Shown here: positions 46,035 to 56,058 of the stretch, piece by piece
Position numbering within the stretch: the stretch's first letter is position 1
How the letters are laid out: each line of letters opens with the position of its first letter
Assembly (NCBI GenBank): GCA_050186235.1
Contig: JBFWYQ010000001.1
Span: 422,678 to 486,677 of the forward strand
Direction: 5' to 3'
Source of the DNA: Hyphomonadaceae bacterium
Lineage (GTDB): Bacteria; Pseudomonadota; Alphaproteobacteria; Caulobacterales; Aquidulcibacteraceae
Length of the DNA stretch: 64,000 nt
Translations under genes and position numbers: made by a program
Notes under the pieces: generated by a model
Seen by the model: the letters and a program-made list of their open reading frames with translations, nothing else
What the model was told of the DNA's origin: nothing
The model's database searches: none

Positions 46035-47618
46035 TCAGCCTGCATCCACTGAAACATTCAGCCAGGCGAAGAAGGTCGCCAAGCAGTCCCTCTGTTGCGG
46101 CGGCATATATTCGAAGTTCCGACCGCGATCGATGATTTCCCAGAAGTCTTTGTTCTCGACGCTTTCGAGCTGGCGCTGAATGTTGCGCATCCTTTCGACC
46201 GGTTCGTCGCGCATGTCGCGCGCGATCGTGCGCGCACGTTCTTCTTGGCCGCTTGCGATATAGTAGGCGGCGAGCTTGACCTGGGCCTTGCGCACGCCCA
46301 TCAGCGCACGCTCCTGGCCGCGCACGAAGGGCGGGCGATCGAGTTCAAGGAAATCGTCGAGGATGTCTTTCTCGGCGGGCGACCCCAGTTCGTTTGCGTG
46401 CTGCGCCAGCGCCGAAAGATCGTAAGCTACCGTCTCGGTGACGAAGCTCAGATCCATCTCGAAGCTCACCAGGCCGTAGTACTTCATGTGTTTGACGCCA
46501 TCGCTTGCGGCGCGGTGCTGACCCTGGGCCAGCATGGATTCAATCAGCTTCCGGTACTGGTTCAGCACGTTATAGGCAGTGCGCACGTCGCGCGCGTTGA
46601 GTGTCGAGCGTAGATACGAATTGAGGAAGCGGAACACGAGATTGATCAGCGCGACGTCATTGGTCCGGCCCGCGGCTTCGCCAATGTAACGCGTATCGAT
46701 GGCGATGACGTAGTTGATGTCGCGCATCGAGCTCAGCGCTTCGTTGTAGATACTCAGATACTGGCGCATCACTTTCCACTCGACCCAGGTGCGCCGTGTT
46801 TCCAAATCGCCAAGCGACTCCGAGTCCATCGCCACGAAGTCCGGATTGGTGCGGATCTCGGGCCCGATCGAAAACCACGCTTCGCTCGCCTGTGGCTTCA
46901 CCTTGAGGTACTCGATGGCGAAGTCCTTCAACGCATCGGCCGCAGAACTGGCGATGATTTTGTCCTTTCCTGAGATCGAGTTGTTGGCGATGTCGGTCAA
47001 TTCTTCGAGCGAAAACAGCATTTGCGCCTGTGCCTCGAAGCAATTGTCGTGGTCCGACTTCAGGGCGCCGCTGCTGGCCCGCGCGATGGCGTCGCTGCGG
47101 ATGTGCCGGATCAGATTTTGCGGCTCCAGGAACCAGAACACGTATCCGAAATACGGCATCATGATCACAAGGCCGCCCATCGTCATGCAGAGCATCGCGA
47201 TCAGAGTCAGGCGCGGCACATAGTTGGATTGAACCGCCGAGCTCAGCCATGCGCCAACAACGCAGGTGACGACGTAATAAGCGGCGACGCGGATATTAAC
47301 GCGGTCACGCAGGAACATCCGCGCCACGCCGGTGTAGCGATCGGCGGACAATTGCACGATGATGCTGACGATGGTGATGACGATGCCGAAGACGGCCACG
47401 CTGATGCCGGCGAGCGCCGCGACCTGGTCAGAATCCGGATCAAAGGAAAAATAGCGCGTAAACGGGCCGTTGAATTCCACAACGCCGCGGAGCGCTTGCG
47501 CGAAATAGTGATCTGTTGAATAGAAAAGCCAGAAGACGATCAGCGCTGCCCAAGCGAGCACCGCCGTTTGCAGCGCGAACTTCCGGAACGTCTCCCTGCG
47601 GTCGTTGACCGCGCTCAT
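46035..47618 (-). CDS. Predicted membrane protein (DUF2254-like)
   Basis: N-terminal TMs with TIVSIIVQLSADRYT motif, then a soluble helical domain. Confidence 0.7.
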   Translation of the reverse strand: MSAVNDRRETFRKFALQTAVLAWAALIVFWLFYSTDHYFAQALRGVVEFNGPFTRYFSFDPDSDQVAALAGISVAVFGIVITIVSIIVQLSADRYTGVARMFLRDRVNIRVAAYYVVTCVVGAWLSSAVQSNYVPRLTLIAMLCMTMGGLVIMMPYFGYVFWFLEPQNLIRHIRSDAIARASSGALKSDHDNCFEAQAQMLFSLEELTDIANNSISGKDKIIASSAADALKDFAIEYLKVKPQASEAWFSIGPEIRTNPDFVAMDSESLGDLETRRTWVEWKVMRQYLSIYNEALSSMRDINYVIAIDTRYIGEAAGRTNDVALINLVFRFLNSYLRSTLNARDVRTAYNVLNQYRKLIESMLAQGQHRAASDGVKHMKYYGLVSFEMDLSFVTETVAYDLSALAQHANELGSPAEKDILDDFLELDRPPFVRGQERALMGVRKAQVKLAAYYIASGQEERARTIARDMRDEPVERMRNIQRQLESVENKDFWEIIDRGRNFEYMPPQQRDCLATFFAWLNVSVDAG

Positions 47619-47693
47619 GGCGCCGACGTGCCGGCTATGCGCGCCGGGAGGCCGCCTGCATCACTGAGCGCGATCGATGGCACTTTTGTCCCG

Positions 47694-48071
47694 TTAGATG
47701 CTTTCCAACCGCGAACTGACAATACCGGCGATGATCACCGCTGCATAGCAGGCGAACATGAGCGCGGCGAACTCGGCGCCGAGCGAGGCGTCGAGATTCG
47801 GAAACAGATTTCTGAAGCTGTTGATCTCGTAGATGCCGACGAGAAGACCCGGCACCGCCATGATCGAGGCGGCTTCGGCGCGGTCTGTGGGCGCAACGCG
47901 CAGAATTTTCAGGAAGAGATAGGTGATCACGAGCAGCGCCACCGGCAACGTCATGAAGAGCCAAGACACGCCGCCCGGACCGGTGGTGAATACCGTTTCT
48001 CCGACAAAGCGAAACGCGAGCGCGATACCGATCCAAAGCACAAAGCCGACGGCCATCCAGCGAACGATCAT
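47694..48071 (-). CDS. Small 4-TM membrane protein (DUF5367-like)
   Basis: GFVLWIG...FRFVG, PGLLV, FPNLD, FAALM...YA. Confidence 0.65.
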   Translation of the reverse strand: MIVRWMAVGFVLWIGIALAFRFVGETVFTTGPGGVSWLFMTLPVALLVITYLFLKILRVAPTDRAEAASIMAVPGLLVGIYEINSFRNLFPNLDASLGAEFAALMFACYAAVIIAGIVSSRLESI

Positions 48072-48266
48072 GACTTACCCCTCTATTGGCGCAGCGGCGC
48101 GCACGTTACGAATTCCCAATGGACCCCGCAATGGCTGCCGAAGTTGCCGCGGCCCGCAAAAGCCCAACCAATTCAAAGAAGAGGGTGCGCACGCCTGGCT
48201 CCTTCGCAGGCGCACACAAACGCCTCCCTTTCGAGATTTTCATTGACCTAGTCCGAATATTGGCGG

Positions 48267-48307: not shown

Positions 48308-50032
48308 ATGTCAACTGCACTGTCGAACAATGCAAAACTGGGCATAGCTGCAACCAGTCTGGTTGCTCTTCTGGCCGTTGGCGCGGTCTCAATCGGCATT
48401 CTCTATCCGCCACAAGGCGGATCAATCTTCGGCACGATCGCGCCGGTGGAGCGTTATCGCTCATCGCAAGTCAGCGATACTGACGTGACGCTCGGCGATC
48501 AGTCCGTCCCGCAACTGATGCAGACCGATGCGTTTCATCTGATGGTGAACGATCCATCGTTCCGCGCATTGGCGCGCGATCCGGGATTTGCGGCCCTCGC
48601 CCAGAACCCGGCCGCGCTGGCGGCGATGGCTCGGGACGCGCAGGCCTTTGCGGCGCTTGCTCGCGATCCACAAGCTTTCGCGGCGCTTGCCCGCGCTGCA
48701 CAAGCCGGTGAAGCCCAATCAATGGACGCTCAAGCGCGCAATGCCGAAGCGTTCACGGCGCTGGCGCAAAATGCACAGGCCTTCGAGATCATGGCGCGTC
48801 AGCCGCAAGCGTTTGCGGTCATGGCCCGCCATCCGCAAGCGTTCGAGGCGCTCGCCCGCCACCCGCAGGCTTTTGCGGCGATGGCGCGTGAACCGCAGGC
48901 GTTTGCTGCTTTCGCCCGCAACGCCGATTTCGCGGCGGCTGCACGCAATCCGGCGGCCAACGTCGCCATGGCGCGTGACGCCGCAGCGTTCGAAGCGTTG
49001 GCTCGCGACGCCCAGGCGATGAGCGCTTTGGCGGCTGACGCGCAAGCGTTCGACGCCTTGGCGCGCGACGCCCAGGCGTTCCAGGCGCTGGCACGCGACG
49101 CGCAGGCATTCAACGCCATGGCGCGTCAAGCTCAAGCCTTCCAGGCGATGGCCCGCAACGCCGAGGCTTTCCGCGCATTGGCGCGTGACGCCCAAGGCCT
49201 CGCCGCCATGGCCCGCAACGCGCAAGCGTTCCAGGCGCAAGGGGCCGCAGCCCGCGGACTCGACGCCCAAGCGACCGCGGCGCTCGCCGCCAATGCGCAG
49301 GCGTTCTCGATCATGGCGCGTGAGCCGCAAGCGTTCGCGGCGATGGCGCGTTATCCGAATGCGTTTGAAGCCCTGGCCCGCCACCCGCAGGCTTTTGCCG
49401 CCATGGCGCGCAACCCGCAGGCGTTCGAGGCCTTCGGCCGCAACGCCAATTTCGCGGCCGCGGCGCGCGACGCGCAAGCCAATGTGGCAATGGCGCGCGA
49501 CGCCCAGGCGTTCCAAGCGCTTGCCCGCGACGCGCAGGCCATGAACGCGTTGGCCCGTGAGGCGCAGGCGTTCGAAGCGATGGCGCGCGACGCGCAGGCA
49601 TTCCAGGCCCTGGCCCGCGACGCGCAGGCATTCGAGGCGATGGCCCGCAACGCGCAAGCGTTCCAAGCCATGGCTCGCAACGCCCAAGCGTTCAACGCGC
49701 TGGCGCGTGACGCCCAAGGTCTCGCCGCCATGGCGCGTAATGCTCAGGCCTTCCAGGCTCAAGCCTCGATCGCCCGCAACGCTCAGGGCCTCAACGCCCA
49801 AGCGATGCAGGCGATGGCGCGTTATCCGCAAGCCTTCGAAGCAATGGCGCAGAACCCGCAGGCGTTCGAAGCGCTGGCGCGTAATGCTCAGGCGCTCGAG
49901 GCGCTGGCCCGTAACGCCGAGGCTTTCACGGCTCTGGCGCGGCAGCCGGCGTTTGCGGCGTTGGCGCGTGAGCCGGCCTTCGCGGCGTTGGCGCGCGACG
50001 CCAACTTTGCGGCAGCCGTTCGGGCGAACTGA
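48308..50032 (+). CDS. Membrane-anchored Ala-rich decapeptide-repeat protein, function unknown
   Basis: AGGA RBS; N-terminal hydrophobic segment aa 11-32; about 45 units of (L/M)AR(D/N/H)(A/P)QAFxA. Confidence 0.9.
   Translation: MSTALSNNAKLGIAATSLVALLAVGAVSIGILYPPQGGSIFGTIAPVERYRSSQVSDTDVTLGDQSVPQLMQTDAFHLMVNDPSFRALARDPGFAALAQNPAALAAMARDAQAFAALARDPQAFAALARAAQAGEAQSMDAQARNAEAFTALAQNAQAFEIMARQPQAFAVMARHPQAFEALARHPQAFAAMAREPQAFAAFARNADFAAAARNPAANVAMARDAAAFEALARDAQAMSALAADAQAFDALARDAQAFQALARDAQAFNAMARQAQAFQAMARNAEAFRALARDAQGLAAMARNAQAFQAQGAAARGLDAQATAALAANAQAFSIMAREPQAFAAMARYPNAFEALARHPQAFAAMARNPQAFEAFGRNANFAAAARDAQANVAMARDAQAFQALARDAQAMNALAREAQAFEAMARDAQAFQALARDAQAFEAMARNAQAFQAMARNAQAFNALARDAQGLAAMARNAQAFQAQASIARNAQGLNAQAMQAMARYPQAFEAMAQNPQAFEALARNAQALEALARNAEAFTALARQPAFAALAREPAFAALARDANFAAAVRAN
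48761..49762 (+). repeat. Two colinear 480-bp super-repeats (aa 152-311 and 326-485) of 30-bp units
   Basis: LAQNAQAFEIMAR...GLAAMARNAQAFQAQ aligns unit for unit with LAANAQAFSIMAR...GLAAMARNAQAFQAQ at a 522-bp offset. Confidence 0.9.
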
Positions 50033-50042
50033 CGTGACGTGG

Positions 50043-50070
50043 CACGCCGCGTCGAGCGAGGCGCGGCGTG
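50043..50070 (+). other. Intergenic GC stem-loop without U tract (possible mRNA stabiliser)
   Basis: CACGCCGCG-N10-CGCGGCGTG. Confidence 0.45.
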
Positions 50071-50097
50071 GCCGTCTGTAAAGCGTGCTAGGTGGGG

Positions 50098-53000
50098 ATG
50101 GTGGGGGTCCGCACGCTCTTATATGCCGCTGCTCTGTCGCTTGCGCCGGTCCTCTCAGCGCAGGCGCAGACGGGCGCCACCACGCCCTCGCCGCCGACCG
50201 GCGCCCAGACGCCAGACGCGCCCGCCCCTGGCGACATAGCGGCGCCACCAACCAGCGACGAGCCGCCGGCCCCAGAACCGCCGCCACCCAGCCGCGCGCC
50301 GGACGACATCCCGCTGATCGATCTTTCGGTGCTCGAAACCGAAAACCTGCGCCTGCTCTATTTCGATCCGTCCGAGACTTACCTGACGCCCTATGTCGGC
50401 CGAAGCTTCGAAAACGCGCTTGCGTTCGAGCGGCGTATTTTCGACTGGGAGCCTTGGGATCAGGTTACGCTGCTCTTGAAGGACTTCGGTGACTACGGCA
50501 ACGCCGCCGCGCGCTCCTCGCCTAACAATGCGCTTCTGATCGACATCGCCCCGCTCAGCCTCGCCTATGAGACATTCAGTCCGGGCGAGCGCTTCTACAC
50601 GCTGACCAATCATGAAGTGACTCACGTCGCGCTCATGGATGTCTGGAACGAGCGCGACGCGATGTGGCGGCGCATTTTCTTCGGCAAGCCGATGCCGGTC
50701 GAGGAGCATCCTGAGACCATTCTCTACAATTACCTCGCCACACCGCGCGTTAACGTCCCGCGTTGGTTTCTCGAAGGCAGCGCCGTGTTCATGGAGACAT
50801 GGATGGCGGGCGGCTTCGGCCGCGCCCAGGGCGCCTATGATGAGATGGTGTTCCGTTCGATGGTGCGCGACGACGCGCACTTCTATTCGCCGGTCGGTCT
50901 AGAATCCGAAGGCATCTTCGTCGACTTCCAAGTCGGCGTGAACGACTATCTCTACGGCACGCGCTTCTTCAGCTATTTGGCGATGCGCTATACGCCGGAG
51001 CAAGTCGTCGCGTGGCTGCGCCGCGACGAAGGCAGCGCGGCCTATTACCAAACGCAGTTCCGGCGCGTGTTCGATCTACCGCTCAATCAGGCCTGGCGCG
51101 ATTGGATCGCCTGGGAACACGAGTTCCAGAATGCGAACCTGACGGCGCTGCGCGCCCATCCGCTGACCGATGGCGCAGCACTTTCGCCGCGCGCGCTCGG
51201 CTCGGTCTCACGCACCTTCGTCGATCCTCGCACCGGCGACTTGATCGGCGCCTTCCGCTATCCAGGCGTCATCGGCCATGTCGGCGTGCTCACTCCCGGG
51301 AGCGGCGACATTCGCCGCCTCACCGACATCAAGGGCGCGATGCTCTATCGCGTCACGTCTCTTGCTTATGACCCAGCGACGAACACGGCGTGGTACACGA
51401 CCGACAATTACGCGTATCGCGACATCATGCAGATCGACGTCGCATCCGGCGACCAACACATGGTGCTGCGCGATGCGCGCATCGGCGACATCGTGTTCAA
51501 TCCGGCCGACCGATCGCTCTGGGGCCTCAGACACCTGAACGGATTCGTCACGCTGGTGCGGATTCCCGAGCCCTATACGAGCTGGAATCAGGTTCACACG
51601 TTTCCGTTCGGGCGCGTGCCATTCGACCTCGATGTTTCGCCGGACGGCTCGATGCTGTCGATGTCCGTCGGTGAGATCAACGGCGACCAAGCGGTGCACG
51701 TCTTTCGTATCGCCGACTTGGATATCGGTGCAACGCCAACGCCGGTCGCGAGTTTCAGCCTCGGCCAGGCAACACCTGAAGGTTTCGTGTTCTCGCCCGA
51801 CGGCCGCTATCTCTATGGCAGCGCCTACTACACCGGCGTGTCGAACATCTATCGCTTTGAGATCGCGACACAGGAGGTCGAAGCAGTTTCTAATGCCGAA
51901 ACCGGCTTCTTTCGTCCGATCCCGCAAGCCGATGGCTCGCTCATCGTTTATGAGTACACTGGCCAGGGTTTCCAGCCTGTCACTATCCGCCCCGCGCCGC
52001 TCGAAGATCTCGGTACGATCCGATTCCTCGGCACGGAAATCGCGCGTACCCATCCGGTGGTTACGACCTGGACGGCAGGCTCTCCATCTCGGGTCGATCT
52101 CGACAGCTTGATTACCCAACGCGGCCATTACCTGCCGCGCGATGAGATGCAATTGGGCGCCGCCTATCCGATCGTTGAGGGCTACCGCGGGCGCGTCGCG
52201 GTTGGCTATCACGCGGTGTTCGAGGATCCGCTGCAGTTCAACCAATTGCACGCCACGCTATCTTACCTGCCGAACTCGCCGTTCGACGATCAGGACTGGC
52301 ATTTCGACATCGAATACAAAACGCTGCGCTGGCGTTTCCGATATTGGCACAACGACGCCGATTTCTACGATCTGTTTGGCCCGACAGAGCGCGCCCGCGC
52401 TGGCGACGCCTTCATCGTCGGCTATCACAACTCTCTGATCTACGATCCGCCGCGCCAGCTCGATTTCAGCGTTGACGCCGCTTACTACACCGGCCTCGAC
52501 ACGCTTCCTGCGGCGCAGGAAGTCTCAACGACATTCGACGAGCTCGGGTCTCTCAACGCCGAACTTACCTACACGAACACGACGCGTTCGCTTGGCGCCG
52601 TCGATCATGAACGCGGTTGGCGCTGGAATGTGGCCGCCGGCGCCGATCATGCTAACGGCGAGTCCTATCCGAGCCTGCGCGCCGGCGTCGATTTCGGCGT
52701 GCCGCTGCCGATGAATAATTCGTCCGCTTGGCTCTACGCGGCGGCCGGCACGATCGGGGGAGACGACGCCAGTCCGCTCAGCGCCTGGTACATGGGTGCG
52801 TTCGGCAACAATTACGTCGATGATCGCGAGATCAAACGGTATCGCGAATTCGATAGTTTCCCGGGTTTCGAGATCAATGCGATCGAAGCGCAGACGTTTG
52901 TCCGCGCCATCGGCGAACTGAATCTGCCGCCGGTGCGGTTCGAGGACATTGGCGTGGCCAGTCTCTTCCTGAGTTCGGTGCGCCCCGCCCTCTTCGCCGG

Positions 53001-53184
53001 AGCGCTCGAGGCCGAGCCGCGCACCGGGGAACGGCGCTCGCTGCAAACGCTCGGTGTCCAGACCGATTGGAATTTCACAGTGGCGCACCGCTTGCCGATG
53101 GTGCTCTCGTTGGGCTACGCGAGAGGCTTCGAAGACGGCGAAGCCGAGAGTGACGAAGTGCTTGTGTCGCTGAAGATCATGTGA
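50098..53184 (+). CDS. Predicted outer-membrane protein: signal peptide, Pro-rich linker, HExxH zinc-peptidase domain, beta-propeller, C-terminal beta-barrel
   Basis: LAPVLSAQA signal; TNHEVTH plus PRWFLEG; VFNPADR, VSPDGS and FSPDGRYL propeller motifs; alternating aromatic beta-strand pattern over the last ~350 aa. Confidence 0.8.
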   Translation: MVGVRTLLYAAALSLAPVLSAQAQTGATTPSPPTGAQTPDAPAPGDIAAPPTSDEPPAPEPPPPSRAPDDIPLIDLSVLETENLRLLYFDPSETYLTPYVGRSFENALAFERRIFDWEPWDQVTLLLKDFGDYGNAAARSSPNNALLIDIAPLSLAYETFSPGERFYTLTNHEVTHVALMDVWNERDAMWRRIFFGKPMPVEEHPETILYNYLATPRVNVPRWFLEGSAVFMETWMAGGFGRAQGAYDEMVFRSMVRDDAHFYSPVGLESEGIFVDFQVGVNDYLYGTRFFSYLAMRYTPEQVVAWLRRDEGSAAYYQTQFRRVFDLPLNQAWRDWIAWEHEFQNANLTALRAHPLTDGAALSPRALGSVSRTFVDPRTGDLIGAFRYPGVIGHVGVLTPGSGDIRRLTDIKGAMLYRVTSLAYDPATNTAWYTTDNYAYRDIMQIDVASGDQHMVLRDARIGDIVFNPADRSLWGLRHLNGFVTLVRIPEPYTSWNQVHTFPFGRVPFDLDVSPDGSMLSMSVGEINGDQAVHVFRIADLDIGATPTPVASFSLGQATPEGFVFSPDGRYLYGSAYYTGVSNIYRFEIATQEVEAVSNAETGFFRPIPQADGSLIVYEYTGQGFQPVTIRPAPLEDLGTIRFLGTEIARTHPVVTTWTAGSPSRVDLDSLITQRGHYLPRDEMQLGAAYPIVEGYRGRVAVGYHAVFEDPLQFNQLHATLSYLPNSPFDDQDWHFDIEYKTLRWRFRYWHNDADFYDLFGPTERARAGDAFIVGYHNSLIYDPPRQLDFSVDAAYYTGLDTLPAAQEVSTTFDELGSLNAELTYTNTTRSLGAVDHERGWRWNVAAGADHANGESYPSLRAGVDFGVPLPMNNSSAWLYAAAGTIGGDDASPLSAWYMGAFGNNYVDDREIKRYREFDSFPGFEINAIEAQTFVRAIGELNLPPVRFEDIGVASLFLSSVRPALFAGALEAEPRTGERRSLQTLGVQTDWNFTVAHRLPMVLSLGYARGFEDGEAESDEVLVSLKIM

Positions 53185-54236
53185 TGGACGCAGACCTGCT
53201 GATAAAGGCGTTCATCGCGCTTGCGCCGGTCGTCGTGCTGCTGTTCGTTTTCGACCGCCTGGACGCCTTCAATCTGATTAACTTCTGGGAGATCGCCGTC
53301 CTGCTGATTGCAGGCGGCGCGCTCGCGGCGCTGAGTTTTCTCGCCAATTTGCGCGTGATGGACGGCTTTCCGATCGGCTTCAGCGCGTACAGCCGTTACG
53401 TCGCGCCCATTGTCGAAGAGAGTATGAAGGCGGCGCCGATCATCTACCTGTTTGCGCGCAATCGGCTGGGATTTAAAGTGGACGCGGCCATAGCCGGTTT
53501 CGCCGTCGGCGCCGGATTTTCCGCCGTCGAGAACATCTGGTACTTGTTCCTGATTACAGACGCCAATGTAACGGCTTGGCTCGTCCGCGGCTTCGGCACG
53601 GCCATCATGCACGGCGGGGCCACGGCCATCTTCGCGATCATCTCGCACGAAATGACCGAGCGCCAAGCCGAAAGTGCGGCTGCGCATTACCGTTTCGATC
53701 CGCTGCTTTTCATTCCCGGCCTGCTGATCGCGATGGCGATCCACTCGGCGTTCAATCATTTTCCACACCAGCCGCTGGTGGTGATGGCGATGACGCTGCT
53801 GCTGGCGCCGGCGACGATCTTTCTGGCCCTCATTCGCAGCGATCGCGCAACCCAACAATGGCTCAAGACCGACAAAACCGCGCACGAAAAGATGCTCGCC
53901 GAGATTCGCGCCGGACACTTCGCGGAAAGCCCGCGTGGACAGGCGGTCAAGGAGGCAGCCGTCCGGCTCGGTTCAAAGTCGGCGTCCGACGCACTTGCTT
54001 ATGCGGAGCTGAAAACAGAACTTATTCTCCGCGCCGAGGAGCTGATTTTCGCGGCCCAAGCCGGCACGCCTTCCGAAGTGGGCGCTGCCGACCGAGAGAA
54101 GTTCGCGAACTTGCATGCGCTGGAACGCAAGCTCGGCCGCTCGGTCGTGGCGGCAATCGAGACGCAACTCGCCTTCACCCGTAACGACCTCTGGGAACTC
54201 GACCGCTTGCGCAAACGGGCAAGAAACGCCGTTTGA
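53184..54236 (+). CDS. PrsW-family intramembrane metalloprotease with C-terminal soluble extension
   Basis: APIVEESMK (EExxK), GAGFSAVEN, AIMHG and IHSAFN motifs; TGATG coupling with the upstream gene. Confidence 0.9.
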   Translation: MDADLLIKAFIALAPVVVLLFVFDRLDAFNLINFWEIAVLLIAGGALAALSFLANLRVMDGFPIGFSAYSRYVAPIVEESMKAAPIIYLFARNRLGFKVDAAIAGFAVGAGFSAVENIWYLFLITDANVTAWLVRGFGTAIMHGGATAIFAIISHEMTERQAESAAAHYRFDPLLFIPGLLIAMAIHSAFNHFPHQPLVVMAMTLLLAPATIFLALIRSDRATQQWLKTDKTAHEKMLAEIRAGHFAESPRGQAVKEAAVRLGSKSASDALAYAELKTELILRAEELIFAAQAGTPSEVGAADREKFANLHALERKLGRSVVAAIETQLAFTRNDLWELDRLRKRARNAV

Positions 54237-54251
54237 CCGGGATCAGAACCG

Positions 54252-54275
54252 GACGCCAGCGGCTGCGATGGCGTC
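54252..54275. terminator. Stem-loop between convergent prsW-like gene and tRNA
   Basis: GACGCCA-N10-TGGCGTC. Confidence 0.45.
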
Positions 54276-54279
54276 TCGG

Positions 54280-54366
54280 CGGAGGGAGTGGGATTCGAAC
54301 CCACGGTGGGCTTGCACCCACGCCGGTTTTCAAGACCGGTGCCTTAAACCACTCGGCCATCCCTCC
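54280..54366 (-). tRNA. tRNA-Ser(TGA), CCA not encoded
   Basis: Reverse complement GGAGGGATGGCCGAGTGGTTTAAGGCACCGGTCTTGAAAACCGGCGTGGGTGCAAGCCCACCGTGGGTTCGAATCCCACTCCCTCCG: acceptor stem, anticodon TGA, long variable arm, TTCGAA loop. Confidence 0.97.
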
Positions 54367-54433
54367 GGACCGGTGGCGGGTATCAGCGCCGGCGCGGCTT
54401 CGCAAGGCGCTGAACGTGCCGCCGCCCAGGCTC

Positions 54434-55831
54434 TTACCAGCGGAACGGCGTGCGCAGCGAAACCCGGACGTCGGGCGCATCCTCGGTGACGCCGAAATCG
54501 ACGCCGGTAGAGATCGTCAGCCTCTCAGTGGCGCGGAACGAGAGGCCGAGCTGCATCGTCCCAACCTGCAATTCCGGCGATTCCTGATTGATCATGACTC
54601 CATTGGCGTCGCTGATCTCCGTCTCGGTCGGGAGCACGTAGGCGTGCGAGTAGCCGATCGAATAGGAGAAGCGCGGGTTAATGGCGAAGCCGAACCCAAA
54701 GCCGAAGCTGATCGAATCACCCGGATCGACGTGGCCGACGGTCGCCTGGCCGATCGTACGGTCGATGTCGTCGCCGATGTTGTGCAGATAGGCCGCGTTG
54801 GCGAACAGCACGGCGGGATCGGTTGCATAGAGCGCCGAAACGCCGCCCTGCACGCCCCAGAAGCCCGAGCCGGTCGCCAGCTCGGTGGCCACGCCTTGGG
54901 CGTCGCGCTGGACGTCAAAAGGCCCCAGCCCCGTGTCGGACTTCACTCGTGCGCTCGCTACGAAGATGGGCGCGCCGTTGCGGCCGCGGTTGAGCTGGTA
55001 GCGGGCCGAAGCCTCCACGTCGCCGATCTGGGCGCCATCGAGTTCGTAAGTGCGCATCGTGGTCGTGCTACCGTTGGCGAGCGTCGTCACGCGATCGTGG
55101 CGATACAAGAACGGTACGCGCGCTTCGACCTCAAGCCGGTCGGTGATAGCGTAGCGGACGGCGGTGGAGGCGGCGACGGTGTCACGCGCCGTGTCGTTGG
55201 CTTCGATCAGCCCGATATTGATGCCGGTCGTGACGGCGACGCCGCGGAAAATGAAGCGGTCGCCGGAGCTGCGGGAGTATTCGACCGACGGCTCGATCAC
55301 GAGCCGGCCGCGGCCCAGAAGGGCGTTCTGCCCTTCCGGAAGCGCTTCCACCGTCGAGACATGCGTCTCTTCGGGCGGCGCTTCGCCGACCGGACCTTGG
55401 GGCGCGGCGGCTGGCGTTGCTTCAGGCGATGTACTGCCGCCTTGTTCTGCTTGGATGAGATTGCGCGACCGCTGCCGATTGAGCGGGATGGGCTCATCAG
55501 CGGCGAAATCGCGGTAGCTCGGGCCTGCATTGGGCGCGCCGGCGCCTCGATTGTCGTCGAGATCAGCCGCGTCCCCCCGCGACATTTCGTTAAGTTCGCG
55601 GCGCTGCCGCTCGAGGATTTCCTGTTGCTCCAGCAGCTGTTGCTGTTGCGCGCGCAAGAGGCGCTCTTGTTCGTCCAGCCGCTGCTCCTGGCGCTGCAGC
55701 AACTCAAGAACACGTGAAAGGTCGGGACCTTGCACCGCATCGGCATGCGCGCTTCCCGTCCAGAAGAAAGCGCAAGCGGCAATCGCGCACGCGGCCAACT
55801 TGGCCGCGCGACGATTCACCGTCCGCTTCAT
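54434..55831 (-). CDS. FapF-like outer-membrane beta-barrel (signal peptide, coiled coil, linker, barrel)
   Basis: Signal ending GSAHA; Q/E-rich coiled coil; LVIEPSVEYSRSS, IGDVEASARYQL, LATGSGFW, DPAVLFAN, GDSISFGFGFGFAIN; C-terminal Phe-Arg-Trp; ATG 55846 is an alternative start. Confidence 0.75.
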   Translation of the reverse strand: MKRTVNRRAAKLAACAIAACAFFWTGSAHADAVQGPDLSRVLELLQRQEQRLDEQERLLRAQQQQLLEQQEILERQRRELNEMSRGDAADLDDNRGAGAPNAGPSYRDFAADEPIPLNRQRSRNLIQAEQGGSTSPEATPAAAPQGPVGEAPPEETHVSTVEALPEGQNALLGRGRLVIEPSVEYSRSSGDRFIFRGVAVTTGINIGLIEANDTARDTVAASTAVRYAITDRLEVEARVPFLYRHDRVTTLANGSTTTMRTYELDGAQIGDVEASARYQLNRGRNGAPIFVASARVKSDTGLGPFDVQRDAQGVATELATGSGFWGVQGGVSALYATDPAVLFANAAYLHNIGDDIDRTIGQATVGHVDPGDSISFGFGFGFAINPRFSYSIGYSHAYVLPTETEISDANGVMINQESPELQVGTMQLGLSFRATERLTISTGVDFGVTEDAPDVRVSLRTPFRW

Positions 55832-56058
55832 TCCGGCACGAAGCATCACCAGACCCACGTTGGAGAGCTGCCCATGGCGCCCCCTCTGCACGAATTATTC
55901 CGGTGAGCTTACCTGTGAGGTGATTAGGAACGGTGAACGCGCGAGAAAATCTGCGTTACGACGATTTCGTCTTCGATTCACACCTGTGAATACTTGCGAA
56001 CCCCGCGCCTCTCCCCTCTTGTACATCTTGTGTGTGGAGGAGCGGCGGAGGCGCTTGG

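What the first reader, a model, noticed from the sequence alone, without database searches (positions are those of the whole stretch)
48308..50032. 574-aa protein of ~45 decapeptide repeats with hierarchical duplication and STI1/DP-like character
After a TM/signal segment and a short unique domain (GTIAPVERYR...LGDQSVPQLMQTDAF), the chain is almost entirely (L/M)AR(D/N/H)(A/P)QAFxA. The repeat region has no Cys, Trp or Lys. Phe recurs every 10 residues. Pro-containing units alternate in blocks with Pro-free units, and a 16-unit block is duplicated colinearly (aa 152-311 and 326-485). A 10-residue period is not a standard heptad coiled coil. The D/N-P-capped, Met/Phe-rich short helices resemble eukaryotic STI1/DP repeats that cradle hydrophobic segments. 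Candidate roles are a periplasmic chaperone solenoid, a spacer or ruler, or a fibre subunit.
Basis: partly seen in the sequence, partly recalled or inferred. Interest (0 to 1): 0.8.

Follow-up and report, generated by a model that had tools for sequence, protein, structure and literature searches.

The report
Membrane-anchored periplasmic short-helix repeat protein
This gene encodes a membrane-anchored periplasmic protein built from about 47 ten-residue mini-helices, and it is a version, without the sigma-factor-binding part, of an undescribed family of stress-signalling (anti-sigma) proteins that always sits next to two envelope proteases.

Summary
ORF 48308-50032 (+) encodes a 574-aa protein with one N-terminal TM helix, a short unique segment, and then about 39 canonical (L/M)AR(D/N)(A/P)QAFxA units. 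The repeat region has no Cys, Trp or Lys. Two 160-aa half-arrays are 85% identical.

It is not an orphan. About 300 species genomes and 314 metagenome stretches encode relatives. Wherever the contig is long enough, the order is repeat protein, then a ~1000-aa secreted protein (HExxH domain, TolB-like propeller, beta-barrel), then a PrsW-family membrane protease.

In soil metagenomes the repeat protein carries an RsiW-like anti-sigma domain, and an ECF sigma gene lies directly upstream (51 of 58 loci). The window belongs to an alphaproteobacterial clade with no sigma gene and no anti-sigma domain.

The STI1/DP resemblance is real at motif level (Sti1 DP2, PDB 2LLW, E 8e-5 to 9e-3), but no full domain matches. 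The core repeats match the alpha-helical superhelix of phage CDHS-1 Gp22 (PDB 7QLR).

Best reading: this is the periplasmic stalk or sensor arm of a trans-envelope proteolysis module. Its function is inferred, not shown. I found no paper describing the family.

The parts
48243..48248 (+). TTGACC, a -35-like hexamer 65 nt upstream of the ATG (candidate promoter element)
   Evidence: ATTGAC(C/G) stands at a similar distance before the ATG in the upstream regions of close relatives L003, L004, L005, L007, L008, L009, L010 and L017. The generic sigma-70 scan did not call a promoter here. This is a candidate only.
48308..50032 (+). Gene for the 574-aa repeat protein (P0001)
   Evidence: ORF. There are 52 colinear orthologues. 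It is single-copy in its own genome.
48308..48406 (+). Short cytoplasmic tail (aa 1-11, one Lys) and a single TM helix (about aa 12-33). Probably a signal anchor with N-in, C-out topology.
   Evidence: Hydropathy maximum at aa 13-31 and AlphaFold2 helix at aa 7-32. In relatives fused to an anti-sigma domain the same segment is an internal TM helix. Whether signal peptidase cleaves it was not tested.
48431..48535 (+). Juxtamembrane family signature, aa 42-76: GTIAPxERY..Q....DVxLGDxSVxxLMQTDxF
   Evidence: G42 T43 P46 R49 Y50 Q54 D59 G63 L70 M71 Q72 F76 are invariant in 52 orthologues. This is the most conserved part of the whole family. It retrieves 415 cluster representatives. Most of it (aa 33-64) is modelled without regular structure, with pLDDT below 50 over aa 33-56 and 60-64.
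48527..48712 (+). First repeats, D/N-P-capped (aa 74-135). This is the stretch that resembles the Sti1 DP2 domain.
   Evidence: Profile hits to 2LLW_A: E 8.3e-5 and 0.0087.
48761..49240 (+). Half-array A, aa 152-311 (16 units)
   Evidence: 85% identical to aa 326-485. pLDDT is 85-94 over most of it.
49283..49762 (+). Half-array A', aa 326-485 (16 units)
   Evidence: The two halves evolve in concert across the clade. This stretch aligns with Gp22 (7QLR) residues 390-495.
49796..50029 (+). C-terminal repeats, aa 497-574, including 9-residue units (LARQPAFAA) and a conserved tail
   Evidence: pLDDT is 51-62.
50092..53184 (+). Gene 2: 1030-aa secreted protein. It has a signal peptide, a Pro-rich linker, an HExxH (gluzincin-like) domain, a TolB-like beta-propeller and a C-terminal beta-barrel.
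   Evidence: H174 E175 H178 E228 are invariant in 43 orthologues. AlphaFold2 pLDDT 82.9, pTM 0.80. Foldseek matches TolB at 1e-8. It is present downstream of the repeat gene in every locus with enough DNA.
53181..54236 (+). Gene 3: PrsW-family intramembrane protease (351 aa) with a conserved C-terminal extension of about 140 aa. Its start overlaps the stop of gene 2 by 4 nt.
   Evidence: Pfam PF13367, E 1e-17. E79 E80 K83 F113 E117 N118 H144 H188 N192 are conserved in at least 95% of 80 homologues. It always follows gene 2.

Best explanation
P0001 is anchored in the inner membrane by one N-terminal helix. The rest of the chain lies in the periplasm.

After the membrane comes an invariant, probably unstructured stretch of about 35 residues. 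After that come roughly 47 short amphipathic helices of 6-9 residues, each started by an Asp/Asn(-Pro) cap. Each helix presents Phe, Leu/Met and Ala on one face and Arg, Gln and Asp/Asn/Glu on the other. Together they most likely pack into an elongated alpha-solenoid (stalk) made of two near-identical halves.

The protein is the sigma-less form of a widespread, undescribed family. The full form is an ECF anti-sigma factor with an RsiW-like cytoplasmic domain, a TM helix, the same juxtamembrane signature and the same kind of helix array.

In both forms the protein is co-transcribed with an outer-membrane-type protein carrying a zinc-protease domain and a TolB-like propeller, and with a PrsW-family membrane protease.

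Proposed mechanism (inferred): the helix array reaches from the inner membrane towards the outer-membrane partner. It shields or presents the juxtamembrane signature. An envelope signal leads to removal of the array by the zinc protease and/or PrsW. In sigma-linked relatives this starts regulated proteolysis of the anti-sigma factor, as PrsW does for RsiW in Bacillus subtilis.

In this alphaproteobacterial clade the output through a sigma factor is absent, so the three proteins must act as an autonomous envelope module whose readout is unknown.

Shown here: the anatomy, the family, the gene linkage, intact catalytic motifs, and the clade structure. Inferred: topology, stalk shape, who cleaves whom, and the signal.
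For: Gene linkage in genomes: the order repeat gene, ~1000-aa gene, PrsW gene is found in every one of the 80 genome loci that has enough downstream DNA.

Gene linkage in metagenomes: the ~1000-aa gene is present in 27 of 27 loci and PrsW in 19 of 19 loci with enough downstream DNA. In the window the genes are tightly packed: a 59-nt gap with no terminator called, then a 4-nt overlap.

Sigma linkage in relatives: an ECF sigma gene abuts the repeat gene in 51 of 58 metagenome loci with enough upstream DNA. There the repeat protein carries an N-terminal LMHAVLDGEA-type domain. That domain matches the RsiW anti-sigma domain, 5WUQ, at E 0.012.

Separate anti-sigma gene: in L053 a separate anti-sigma gene lies between the sigma gene and the repeat gene.

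Clade structure: a tree of 85 gene-2 proteins puts all alphaproteobacterial sigma-less loci on one side of a branch with 100% SH-like support. Only 3 state changes are needed in all.

Catalytic residues are conserved in both proteases.

Structure: AlphaFold2 gives 47 short helices separated by breaks of 1-2 residues in most cases. pLDDT is mostly 85-96 in the two half-arrays and below 50 for most of the invariant juxtamembrane signature.

Solved-structure matches: Gp22 superhelix 7QLR at E 3.7e-11 with the orthologue profile, 6e-8 with the anti-sigma-type profile, and 9.8e-5 with the single sequence. Gp22 has 42 helices of 5-14 residues, loops of 1-3 residues and three helices per turn (bioRxiv 10.1101/2021.07.05.451159). 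Sti1 DP2 (2LLW) also matches.

Length: in the sigma-less clade the part after the signature is 345-555 aa, median 493, sd 37, n = 53.
Against: There are no experimental data on any member, and I found no paper.

The window's protein has only 11 residues on the cytoplasmic side. No ECF sigma gene lies within 8 kb. The best of the genome's 11 ECF sigma genes is only 30% identical to the cassette sigma. The signalling output proposed for relatives therefore cannot be transferred directly.

Foldseek found no significant structural neighbour for the model in the PDB or in BFVD. hhalign gave only 5% probability for the Gp22 match. The solenoid geometry is therefore unverified, and model coordinates could not be inspected.

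The module is accessory. It is present in 16 of 36 species of the genus and in 1 of 300 sampled genomes of the class.

Confidence: 0.55

Rival explanations
1. Periplasmic holdase or chaperone. The array is a chain of STI1-like 'helical hands' whose Met/Phe-rich grooves are exposed and bind hydrophobic segments. Clients would be unfolded outer-membrane proteins, lipoprotein tails, or the barrel of gene 2 on its way to the outer membrane. Client load would be what the module senses.
For: Motif-level similarity to Sti1 DP2 (2LLW). Whole-sequence Pfam hits to STI1-HOP_DP, XPC-binding and UBQLN1 in many orthologues. Phe plus Met make up about 13% of the repeat region. The partner gene encodes a large barrel protein that must cross the periplasm.
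Against: No domain-level STI1 match exists in any orthologue, and the window's protein has none at all. On a helical wheel the F, L/M and A positions fall on a single face of each 9-residue helix. That fits a buried solenoid core as well as it fits a groove (inference). The half-arrays are modelled with pLDDT 85-96 as regular packed helices, whereas STI1 domains are described as flexible (general knowledge). Relatives use very different polar residues in their units.
Confidence: 0.2
2. Pure spacer or tether. The stalk has no signalling role and simply holds the PrsW-containing inner-membrane complex at a fixed distance from the outer-membrane protein. It would be a molecular ruler for periplasmic width, as TolA or Lpp length is.
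For: Length is narrowly conserved in the sigma-less clade (sd 37 aa around 493, n = 53), even though the sequence has diverged to 35-60% identity. The two-half architecture is kept in all orthologues.
Against: Sigma-linked relatives vary from 154 to 565 aa after the signature, so a fixed length is not a family property. The most conserved part is the juxtamembrane signature, not the array. The module is absent from more than half of the congeneric species, so it cannot set a basic envelope dimension.
Confidence: 0.15
3. Secreted fibre or functional-amyloid subunit, exported through the neighbouring FapF-like barrel (54434-55891, minus strand).
For: Ala/Gln/Asn-rich imperfect repeats. A barrel gene lies 200 nt beyond the operon.
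Against: That barrel gene is convergent and has no counterpart in any of the 80 related genome loci, not even in L005, whose gene-2 protein is 89% identical to the window's. The protein has a long hydrophobic anchor, which is an internal TM helix in its fused relatives. It is predicted to be all-helical with high confidence. No fap genes are nearby.
Confidence: 0.03

Closest known systems
Bacillus subtilis sigma-W / RsiW / PrsW regulated intramembrane proteolysis
   Same: A PrsW-family protease with intact motifs is co-encoded. Relatives of P0001 carry an N-terminal domain matching the RsiW anti-sigma domain (5WUQ, E 0.012) and sit directly after an ECF sigma gene. They are single-pass proteins with N-in, C-out topology.
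   Different: The window's protein has no anti-sigma domain and no sigma gene nearby. The extracytoplasmic part is a helix array of about 500 aa, unrelated to that of RsiW. A third, outer-membrane-type zinc-protease/propeller/barrel protein is an obligatory partner. The hosts are diderm bacteria. The PrsW homologue has an extra C-terminal domain of about 140 aa.
STI1/HOP DP domains (Pfam PF17830; Sti1 DP2, PDB 2LLW) and the related XPC-binding and ubiquilin STI1 regions
   Same: Short helices started by D/N-P, with the pattern xDPxΦxxΦxxDPxΦ..NPxAL. Profile matches to 2LLW. Whole-sequence Pfam hits in 22-25 of 52 orthologues.
   Different: There is no domain-level match. Here about 47 units run on without a five-helix module boundary. 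The protein is periplasmic, bacterial and membrane-anchored. Most units in the window's protein lack Pro (26 of 39 have Ala at position 5).
N-terminal alpha-helical superhelix of the Clostridioides difficile phage CDHS-1 receptor-binding protein Gp22 (PDB 7QLR)
   Same: A ten-residue period with an (A)NNxxA(M/F)xxI unit. HMMER matches at E 3.7e-11, 6e-8 and 9.8e-5. The solved structure has helices of 5-14 residues with loops of 1-3 residues and three helices per turn. This resembles the secondary-structure string of the P0001 model.
   Different: hhalign probability is only 5%, and Foldseek found no match. Homology is therefore not established. Gp22 is a soluble phage tail protein with a beta-sandwich tip and a dimerising hairpin. 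It has no TM helix and no juxtamembrane signature, and it has no Pfam family either.
Cell-surface signalling (FecA-FecR-FecI type: an outer-membrane barrel talking to a periplasm-spanning anti-sigma factor)
   Same: The logic: an outer-membrane barrel protein, an inner-membrane anti-sigma factor with a long periplasmic part, an ECF sigma factor, and proteolytic activation (general knowledge; PMC11637429 listed).
   Different: No TonB-dependent transducer and no FecR domain is present. The barrel protein carries its own protease and propeller, and the protease set is different. Nothing here has been shown experimentally.

Membership tests
STI1/HOP DP domain (PF17830) and STI1 clan | A domain-level match to the Pfam model above its gathering score | tested here: not met
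   P0001 has no STI1 hit even at E <= 10. Orthologues reach whole-sequence scores near or above the cut-off (L046: 31.4 against 29.1 bits; XPC-binding: 35 against 26.4). However, none has a stretch that passes on its own, and the best stretches cover 20-25 residues.
STI1/HOP DP domain (PF17830) and STI1 clan | Sequence similarity to a solved DP domain | tested here: met
   2LLW_A (Sti1 DP2): E 8.3e-5 at 25.2 bits with profile A5, and E 0.0087 with profile A1. Bias is low. The match covers the first repeats after the juxtamembrane signature.
STI1/HOP DP domain (PF17830) and STI1 clan | A five-helix module with an exposed hydrophobic client-binding groove | not testable with these tools
Only the secondary structure and pLDDT are available.
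Class I (RsiW-like) ECF anti-sigma factor | An N-terminal cytoplasmic anti-sigma domain | tested here: not met
   Only 11 residues precede the TM helix, and the upstream 236 nt are intergenic. The domain is present in relatives.
Class I (RsiW-like) ECF anti-sigma factor | A cognate ECF sigma gene adjacent | tested here: not met
   No ECF sigma lies within the searched part of the window or within 8 kb in any alphaproteobacterial locus. The own genome has 11 ECF sigma genes, the best only 30% identical to the cassette sigma.
Class I (RsiW-like) ECF anti-sigma factor | Single-pass membrane protein with an extracytoplasmic C-terminal part | tested here: met
   There is one hydrophobic segment, at aa 12-33, with Lys on the N-terminal side and a model helix at aa 7-32. 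The topology itself is inferred.
The undescribed cassette family (juxtamembrane GTIxPxxRY signature + short-helix array + HExxH/propeller/barrel protein + PrsW) | The juxtamembrane signature directly after the TM helix | tested here: met
   Residues are invariant in 52 orthologues. The signature is shared with anti-sigma-type members. There are 415 representatives at E <= 1e-3.
The undescribed cassette family (juxtamembrane GTIxPxxRY signature + short-helix array + HExxH/propeller/barrel protein + PrsW) | The ~1000-aa HExxH protein and PrsW encoded directly downstream | tested here: met
   Window genes 50092-53184 and 53181-54236. The same order is found in all loci with enough DNA.
Gp22-type alpha-helical superhelix (PDB 7QLR) | Significant sequence or profile similarity to the superhelix region | tested here: inconclusive
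   HMMER gives E 3.7e-11 (bias 21 bits), 6e-8 and 9.8e-5. hhalign gives 5% probability.
Gp22-type alpha-helical superhelix (PDB 7QLR) | Structural superposition, with three short helices per turn | tested here: inconclusive
   Foldseek finds no significant hit in the PDB or BFVD. Helix and loop lengths in the model agree with the published description. Helices per turn could not be measured.
Fap-type functional amyloid | Co-conserved FapF exporter and fap genes | tested here: not met
   The neighbouring barrel gene is on the opposite strand and is absent from all 80 related genome loci.

The most novel reading that the evidence does not exclude
The array is a natural alpha-solenoid class with a single short helix per ten-residue unit, the bacterial, tandemly expanded counterpart of the STI1 'DP' motif. 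It forms a periplasm-spanning stalk. Together with an outer-membrane zinc-protease/TolB-propeller/barrel protein and a PrsW protease, it makes a previously unrecognised trans-envelope proteolytic device. In most lineages the device drives an ECF sigma factor. In one alphaproteobacterial clade, including this genome, it has worked without any sigma factor since before the Caulobacterales and Sphingomonadales copies diverged.
Probability: 0.3. Interest if true: 0.8.

Novelty: new variant of a known kind. Interest (0 to 1): 0.62.

Why it matters
If the reading is right, PrsW-type regulated proteolysis is not confined to Firmicutes. PrsW is so far understood mainly from Bacillus RsiW (general knowledge).

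It would also operate in diderm bacteria as part of a three-protein cassette that spans the envelope, using a sensor arm of an unusual architecture (one mini-helix per ten residues).

The sigma-less clade found here is a natural experiment. It shows that the repeat protein and the two proteases are kept together for their own sake, so the module has a function beyond sigma-factor control.

The family has no Pfam or NCBIfam model. Cultured carriers exist (Sphingomonas hankyongi SE220, S. agri LMG 29563, S. alba SE158), so the question can be tested directly.

Tried and rejected
- Pfam and NCBIfam on P0001 gave nothing above threshold. YlbE, at 23.6 against 27 bits, is a two-unit repeat match.
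- Foldseek of the P0001 model against the PDB and BFVD gave no hit with E below 0.8. This is uninformative for long helical repeats.
- tblastn of half-array A' against phage genomes gave no match, because the low-complexity filter is on.
- hhalign of the orthologue alignment against Gp22 gave 5% probability. I therefore do not claim homology.
- Exact-sequence look-up of orthologues for source names found none in the collection.
- Supplements of the ECF reclassification paper are not held. Literature searches for PrsW with ECF in Proteobacteria, or for STI1 with anti-sigma factors, found nothing on this family.
- A 494-aa ORF at 54233-55717 (+) would have made a fourth operon gene. I rejected it. 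Its codon-position GC is atypical (0.78/0.51/0.69), whereas the overlapping minus-strand barrel gene is typical (0.69/0.49/0.78). It also has no counterpart in any related locus.
- I looked for an ECF-type promoter upstream and found only a conserved TTGAC -35-like box, with no consistent AAC...CGT pattern.
- I considered a pentapeptide beta-helix reading because of the lag-5 signal. I rejected it because the lag-5 signal comes from Ala at unit positions 2, 5, 7 and 10, and the model is confidently helical.
Full report
**1. The observation**

The ORF at 48308-50032 (+) exists and translates to the 574-aa protein described.

- Residue-identity autocorrelation in aa 76-574 peaks at lags 10, 20 and 30 (0.52, 0.49, 0.43).
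- Tandem Repeats Finder reports 30-, 60- and 90-nt arrays.
- Thirty-nine units fit a strict decamer (L/M)-A-R-(N/D)-(A/P)-Q-A-F-x-A.
- The repeat region has no Cys, Trp or Lys.
- Pro-containing units come in blocks.
- aa 152-311 and aa 326-485 are 85% identical at protein level and 80% at DNA level. They differ at 54 synonymous and 24 non-synonymous codons. The duplication is therefore old and the + frame is under purifying selection.

Codon-position GC cannot separate the + frame from the long antisense ORF 48719-50287. However, 52 orthologues conserve the + frame protein end to end.

**2. Anatomy**

There are eleven cytoplasmic residues with the protein's only Lys, then one hydrophobic segment at aa 12-33 (model helix aa 7-32).

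Next comes the family signature, GTIAPxERY..Q....DVxLGDxSVxxLMQTDxF (aa 42-76). Twelve of its residues are invariant in 52 orthologues. It is also conserved in much more distant members. AlphaFold2 leaves aa 33-64, which covers most of this signature, without regular structure, with pLDDT below 50 over aa 33-56 and 60-64. That is typical of a linear motif that needs a partner.

After the signature the model has 47 helices of 6-9 residues, mostly with breaks of 1-2 residues. pLDDT is mostly 85-96 in the two half-arrays and lower in the linkers and the C-terminal part. The mean is 73.5 and pTM is 0.54.

On a helical wheel, the unit places A7, F8, L/M1 and A2 on one face and Q6, x9 and R3 on the other, with D/N4 as the N-cap (my inference). 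Net charge is near neutral: 45 Arg against 39 Asp plus Glu.

**3. Family and context**

No Pfam or NCBIfam model fits. A word-based search found 15 relatives. Several have an N-terminal extension beginning LMHAxLDGEA. phmmer with aa 35-111 against 1.84 billion cluster representatives found 415 at E <= 1e-3. The signature starts either at about residue 30-45, as here, or at about residue 110-180.

A scan of one genome per species found 302 loci. The 80 best are mostly Caulobacterales (Hyphomonadaceae, Terricaulis, Caulobacteraceae), Sphingomonadales (Sphingomicrobium, and three cultured Sphingomonas species) and Micropepsaceae, plus two gammaproteobacterial MAGs.

In every one of these loci with enough downstream DNA, the repeat gene is followed by two genes:
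- a homologue of window gene 50092-53184 (52-89% identity);
- a homologue of the PrsW-family gene 53181-54236 (36-89% identity).

The 494-aa ORF after PrsW is a shadow of a convergent barrel gene. Neither is conserved in relatives. The module therefore has three genes.

**4. The partners**

Gene 2 (1030 aa) has a signal peptide and a Pro-rich linker. Next is an alpha/beta domain with invariant H174-E175-x-x-H178 and E228 in a WFLEGSA context, which is gluzincin-like. Then come a beta-propeller and a C-terminal beta-barrel with long strands. The AlphaFold2 model has pLDDT 82.9 and pTM 0.80. The propeller matches TolB by fold (E 1e-8) and weakly by sequence.

Gene 3 matches Pfam PrsW-protease at E 1e-17. 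It keeps E79 E80 K83, F113 E117 N118, H144, H188 and N192 in at least 95% of 80 homologues. It also has a conserved C-terminal extension of about 140 residues.

**5. Link to ECF sigma factors**

On metagenome contig L001 the order is GAF-SpoIIE-kinase, STAS, ECF sigma, anti-sigma::repeat fusion (P0005), gene-2 homologue (52% identical over 957 residues), PrsW homologue (37%).

A metagenome scan seeded with the fused type returned 80 loci:
- an ECF sigma gene lies directly upstream in 51 of 58 loci with enough upstream DNA;
- gene 2 follows in 27 of 27 loci with enough downstream DNA;
- PrsW follows in 19 of 19.

A profile of the fused type matches the cytoplasmic domain of RsiW (5WUQ) at E 0.012. 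RsiW is the known PrsW substrate in Bacillus subtilis (general knowledge). In gammaproteobacterial locus L053 the anti-sigma factor is a separate gene between the sigma gene and the repeat gene.

None of the alphaproteobacterial loci has an ECF sigma gene within 8 kb. The window genome's 11 ECF sigma genes are at most 30% identical to the cassette sigma.

A tree of 85 gene-2 proteins places all 58 alphaproteobacterial sigma-less rows on one side of a branch with 100% SH-like support. Sigma-linked rows lie on the other side, and the whole tree needs three state changes. The window therefore carries a long-lived sigma-less lineage of the cassette, not a recent truncation.

**6. Evolution of the array**

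In the sigma-less clade the part after the signature is 345-555 aa, median 493, sd 37, n = 53. Orthologues align colinearly.

The two-half architecture is universal. Within each protein the halves are 44-96% identical. Halves from distant species are 35-60% identical, and A resembles the other species' A' as much as its A, except in the closest relative, L005. The halves therefore evolve in concert.

Sigma-linked members are more varied. They have 154-565 aa after the signature (median 338) and units of 8, 9 or 10 residues with quite different polar residues.

**7. Comparison with known structures and families**

STI1:
- A family profile hits Sti1 DP2 (2LLW) at E 8.3e-5 and 0.0087, over the first repeats.
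- Among 52 orthologues, 25, 22, 17 and 4 give whole-sequence Pfam hits to XPC-binding, STI1-HOP_DP, YlbE and UBQLN1 respectively.
- None has a domain-level stretch. The matches are sums of two-unit fragments.

Gp22:
- The orthologue profile hits the alpha-helical superhelix of phage CDHS-1 Gp22 (7QLR) at E 3.7e-11. The anti-sigma-type profile gives 6e-8, and P0001 alone gives 9.8e-5.
- The preprint describes 42 helices of 5-14 residues, loops of 1-3 residues and three helices per turn of a right-handed superhelix.
- hhalign gives only 5% probability. Foldseek finds nothing significant in the PDB or BFVD.
- I treat Gp22 as the best structural analogue, not as a homologue. Gp22 itself has no Pfam family.

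**8. Mechanism**

The best-supported reading is that P0001 is the periplasmic arm of a trans-envelope proteolysis module. The supporting points are:
- strict linkage with two proteases whose catalytic residues are intact;
- an invariant, unstructured juxtamembrane signature, which is a natural recognition or cleavage site;
- relatives that are anti-sigma factors placed directly after ECF sigma genes.

For sigma-linked members, the PrsW/RsiW precedent gives a concrete model. Removal of the extracytoplasmic array by the zinc protease and/or PrsW opens the way to intramembrane cleavage and sigma release.

For this genome the output is unknown. The conservation of the triad without a sigma factor argues for an autonomous envelope function.

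It remains open whether the array is a rigid stalk reaching the outer-membrane partner, a client-binding STI1-like holdase, or only a spacer. I rank the readings 0.55, 0.20 and 0.15. A fibre or amyloid role is unlikely (0.03).

**9. Distribution and limits**

The gene is single-copy in a 3.52-Mb genome that is 99.98% complete. It is present in 16 of 36 congeneric species, in 0 of 24 genomes from other genera of the order, and in 1 of 300 sampled genomes of the class. It is therefore an accessory module.

**10. Earlier notes of this scan**

After reaching the above, I found AI notes on the same cassette in four other genomes. All four describe sigma-linked forms, three with the array on the anti-sigma factor itself. 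They draw the same comparisons with RsiW/PrsW and STI1 DP. There are also first-reader notes on this window's module, gene 2 and the neighbouring barrel. They agree with my reading but are not independent evidence.

What this window adds:
- the sigma-less clade, shown as one side of a well-supported branch;
- its constrained length;
- the concerted evolution of its two halves;
- the Gp22 analogue.

**Verdict**

This is a real and well-conserved gene. The protein belongs to an uncharacterised anti-sigma-type cassette family, of which this is a sigma-less variant. I found no description of the family in the searchable literature.

Noticed in passing
window 54434-55891 (-) and 54233-55717 (+): Two long overlapping ORFs lie after the PrsW gene. 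The plus-strand 494-aa ORF looks like its shadow. Neither has a counterpart in any of the 80 related genome loci.
   Followed up: partly
window 46035-48071 (-): A DUF5367 membrane protein (125 aa) and a 527-aa membrane protein with no Pfam match lie divergently upstream. The pair recurs next to the module only in the closest relatives (L003, L005, L007, L008, L010, L011, L017, L018, L036, L058). In L009 only the 527-aa gene was found, downstream of the module.
   Followed up: partly
window 48243-48248: TTGACC lies 65 nt before the ATG. ATTGAC(C/G) stands at a similar distance before the ATG in the upstream regions of eight close relatives, suggesting a housekeeping-type -35 box rather than an ECF-type promoter.
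   Followed up: partly
window 48719-50287 (-): A 522-aa Arg-rich antisense ORF runs through the repeat gene. Several same-strand, out-of-frame ORFs of 100-170 aa also occur. They are products of the GC-rich 30-nt repeat, not genes.
   Followed up: partly
L001 4548-7144 and L053 4443-7038: In two distant sigma-linked loci the ECF sigma gene is preceded by a SpoIIE-phosphatase/HATPase_c_2 protein (with GAF domains in L001) and a STAS protein. A partner-switching module is therefore attached to the cassette there.
   Followed up: no
P0012, P0003, P0009: Three odd fusions occur on short metagenome contigs. One is an ECF sigma plus partial SnoaL domain followed by the decapeptide repeats with no TM helix. 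One is the repeat protein's N-terminal half fused to a GT2 glycosyltransferase. One is an HExxH fragment running into repeats. They may be real fusions or assembly or frameshift artefacts.
   Followed up: no
L078, L021, L028: Contigs labelled Bacillota or Flavobacteriaceae MAGs carry modules that nest inside Sphingomicrobium or next to Micropepsaceae sequences in the gene-2 tree (L028 was not in the tree). These are probably mis-binned contigs.
   Followed up: partly
L002, P0004, P0008, P0015, P0016: Several metagenome homologues switch between the Ala-rich and Arg-rich frames inside the repeats. This looks like frameshift errors of long-read assemblies in the 30-nt array.
   Followed up: no
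L053 7881-9761: A gammaproteobacterial member has about 58 nearly perfect AQHPQAFAAL units (lag-10 identity 0.71). It is far more homogenised than the alphaproteobacterial arrays.
   Followed up: no
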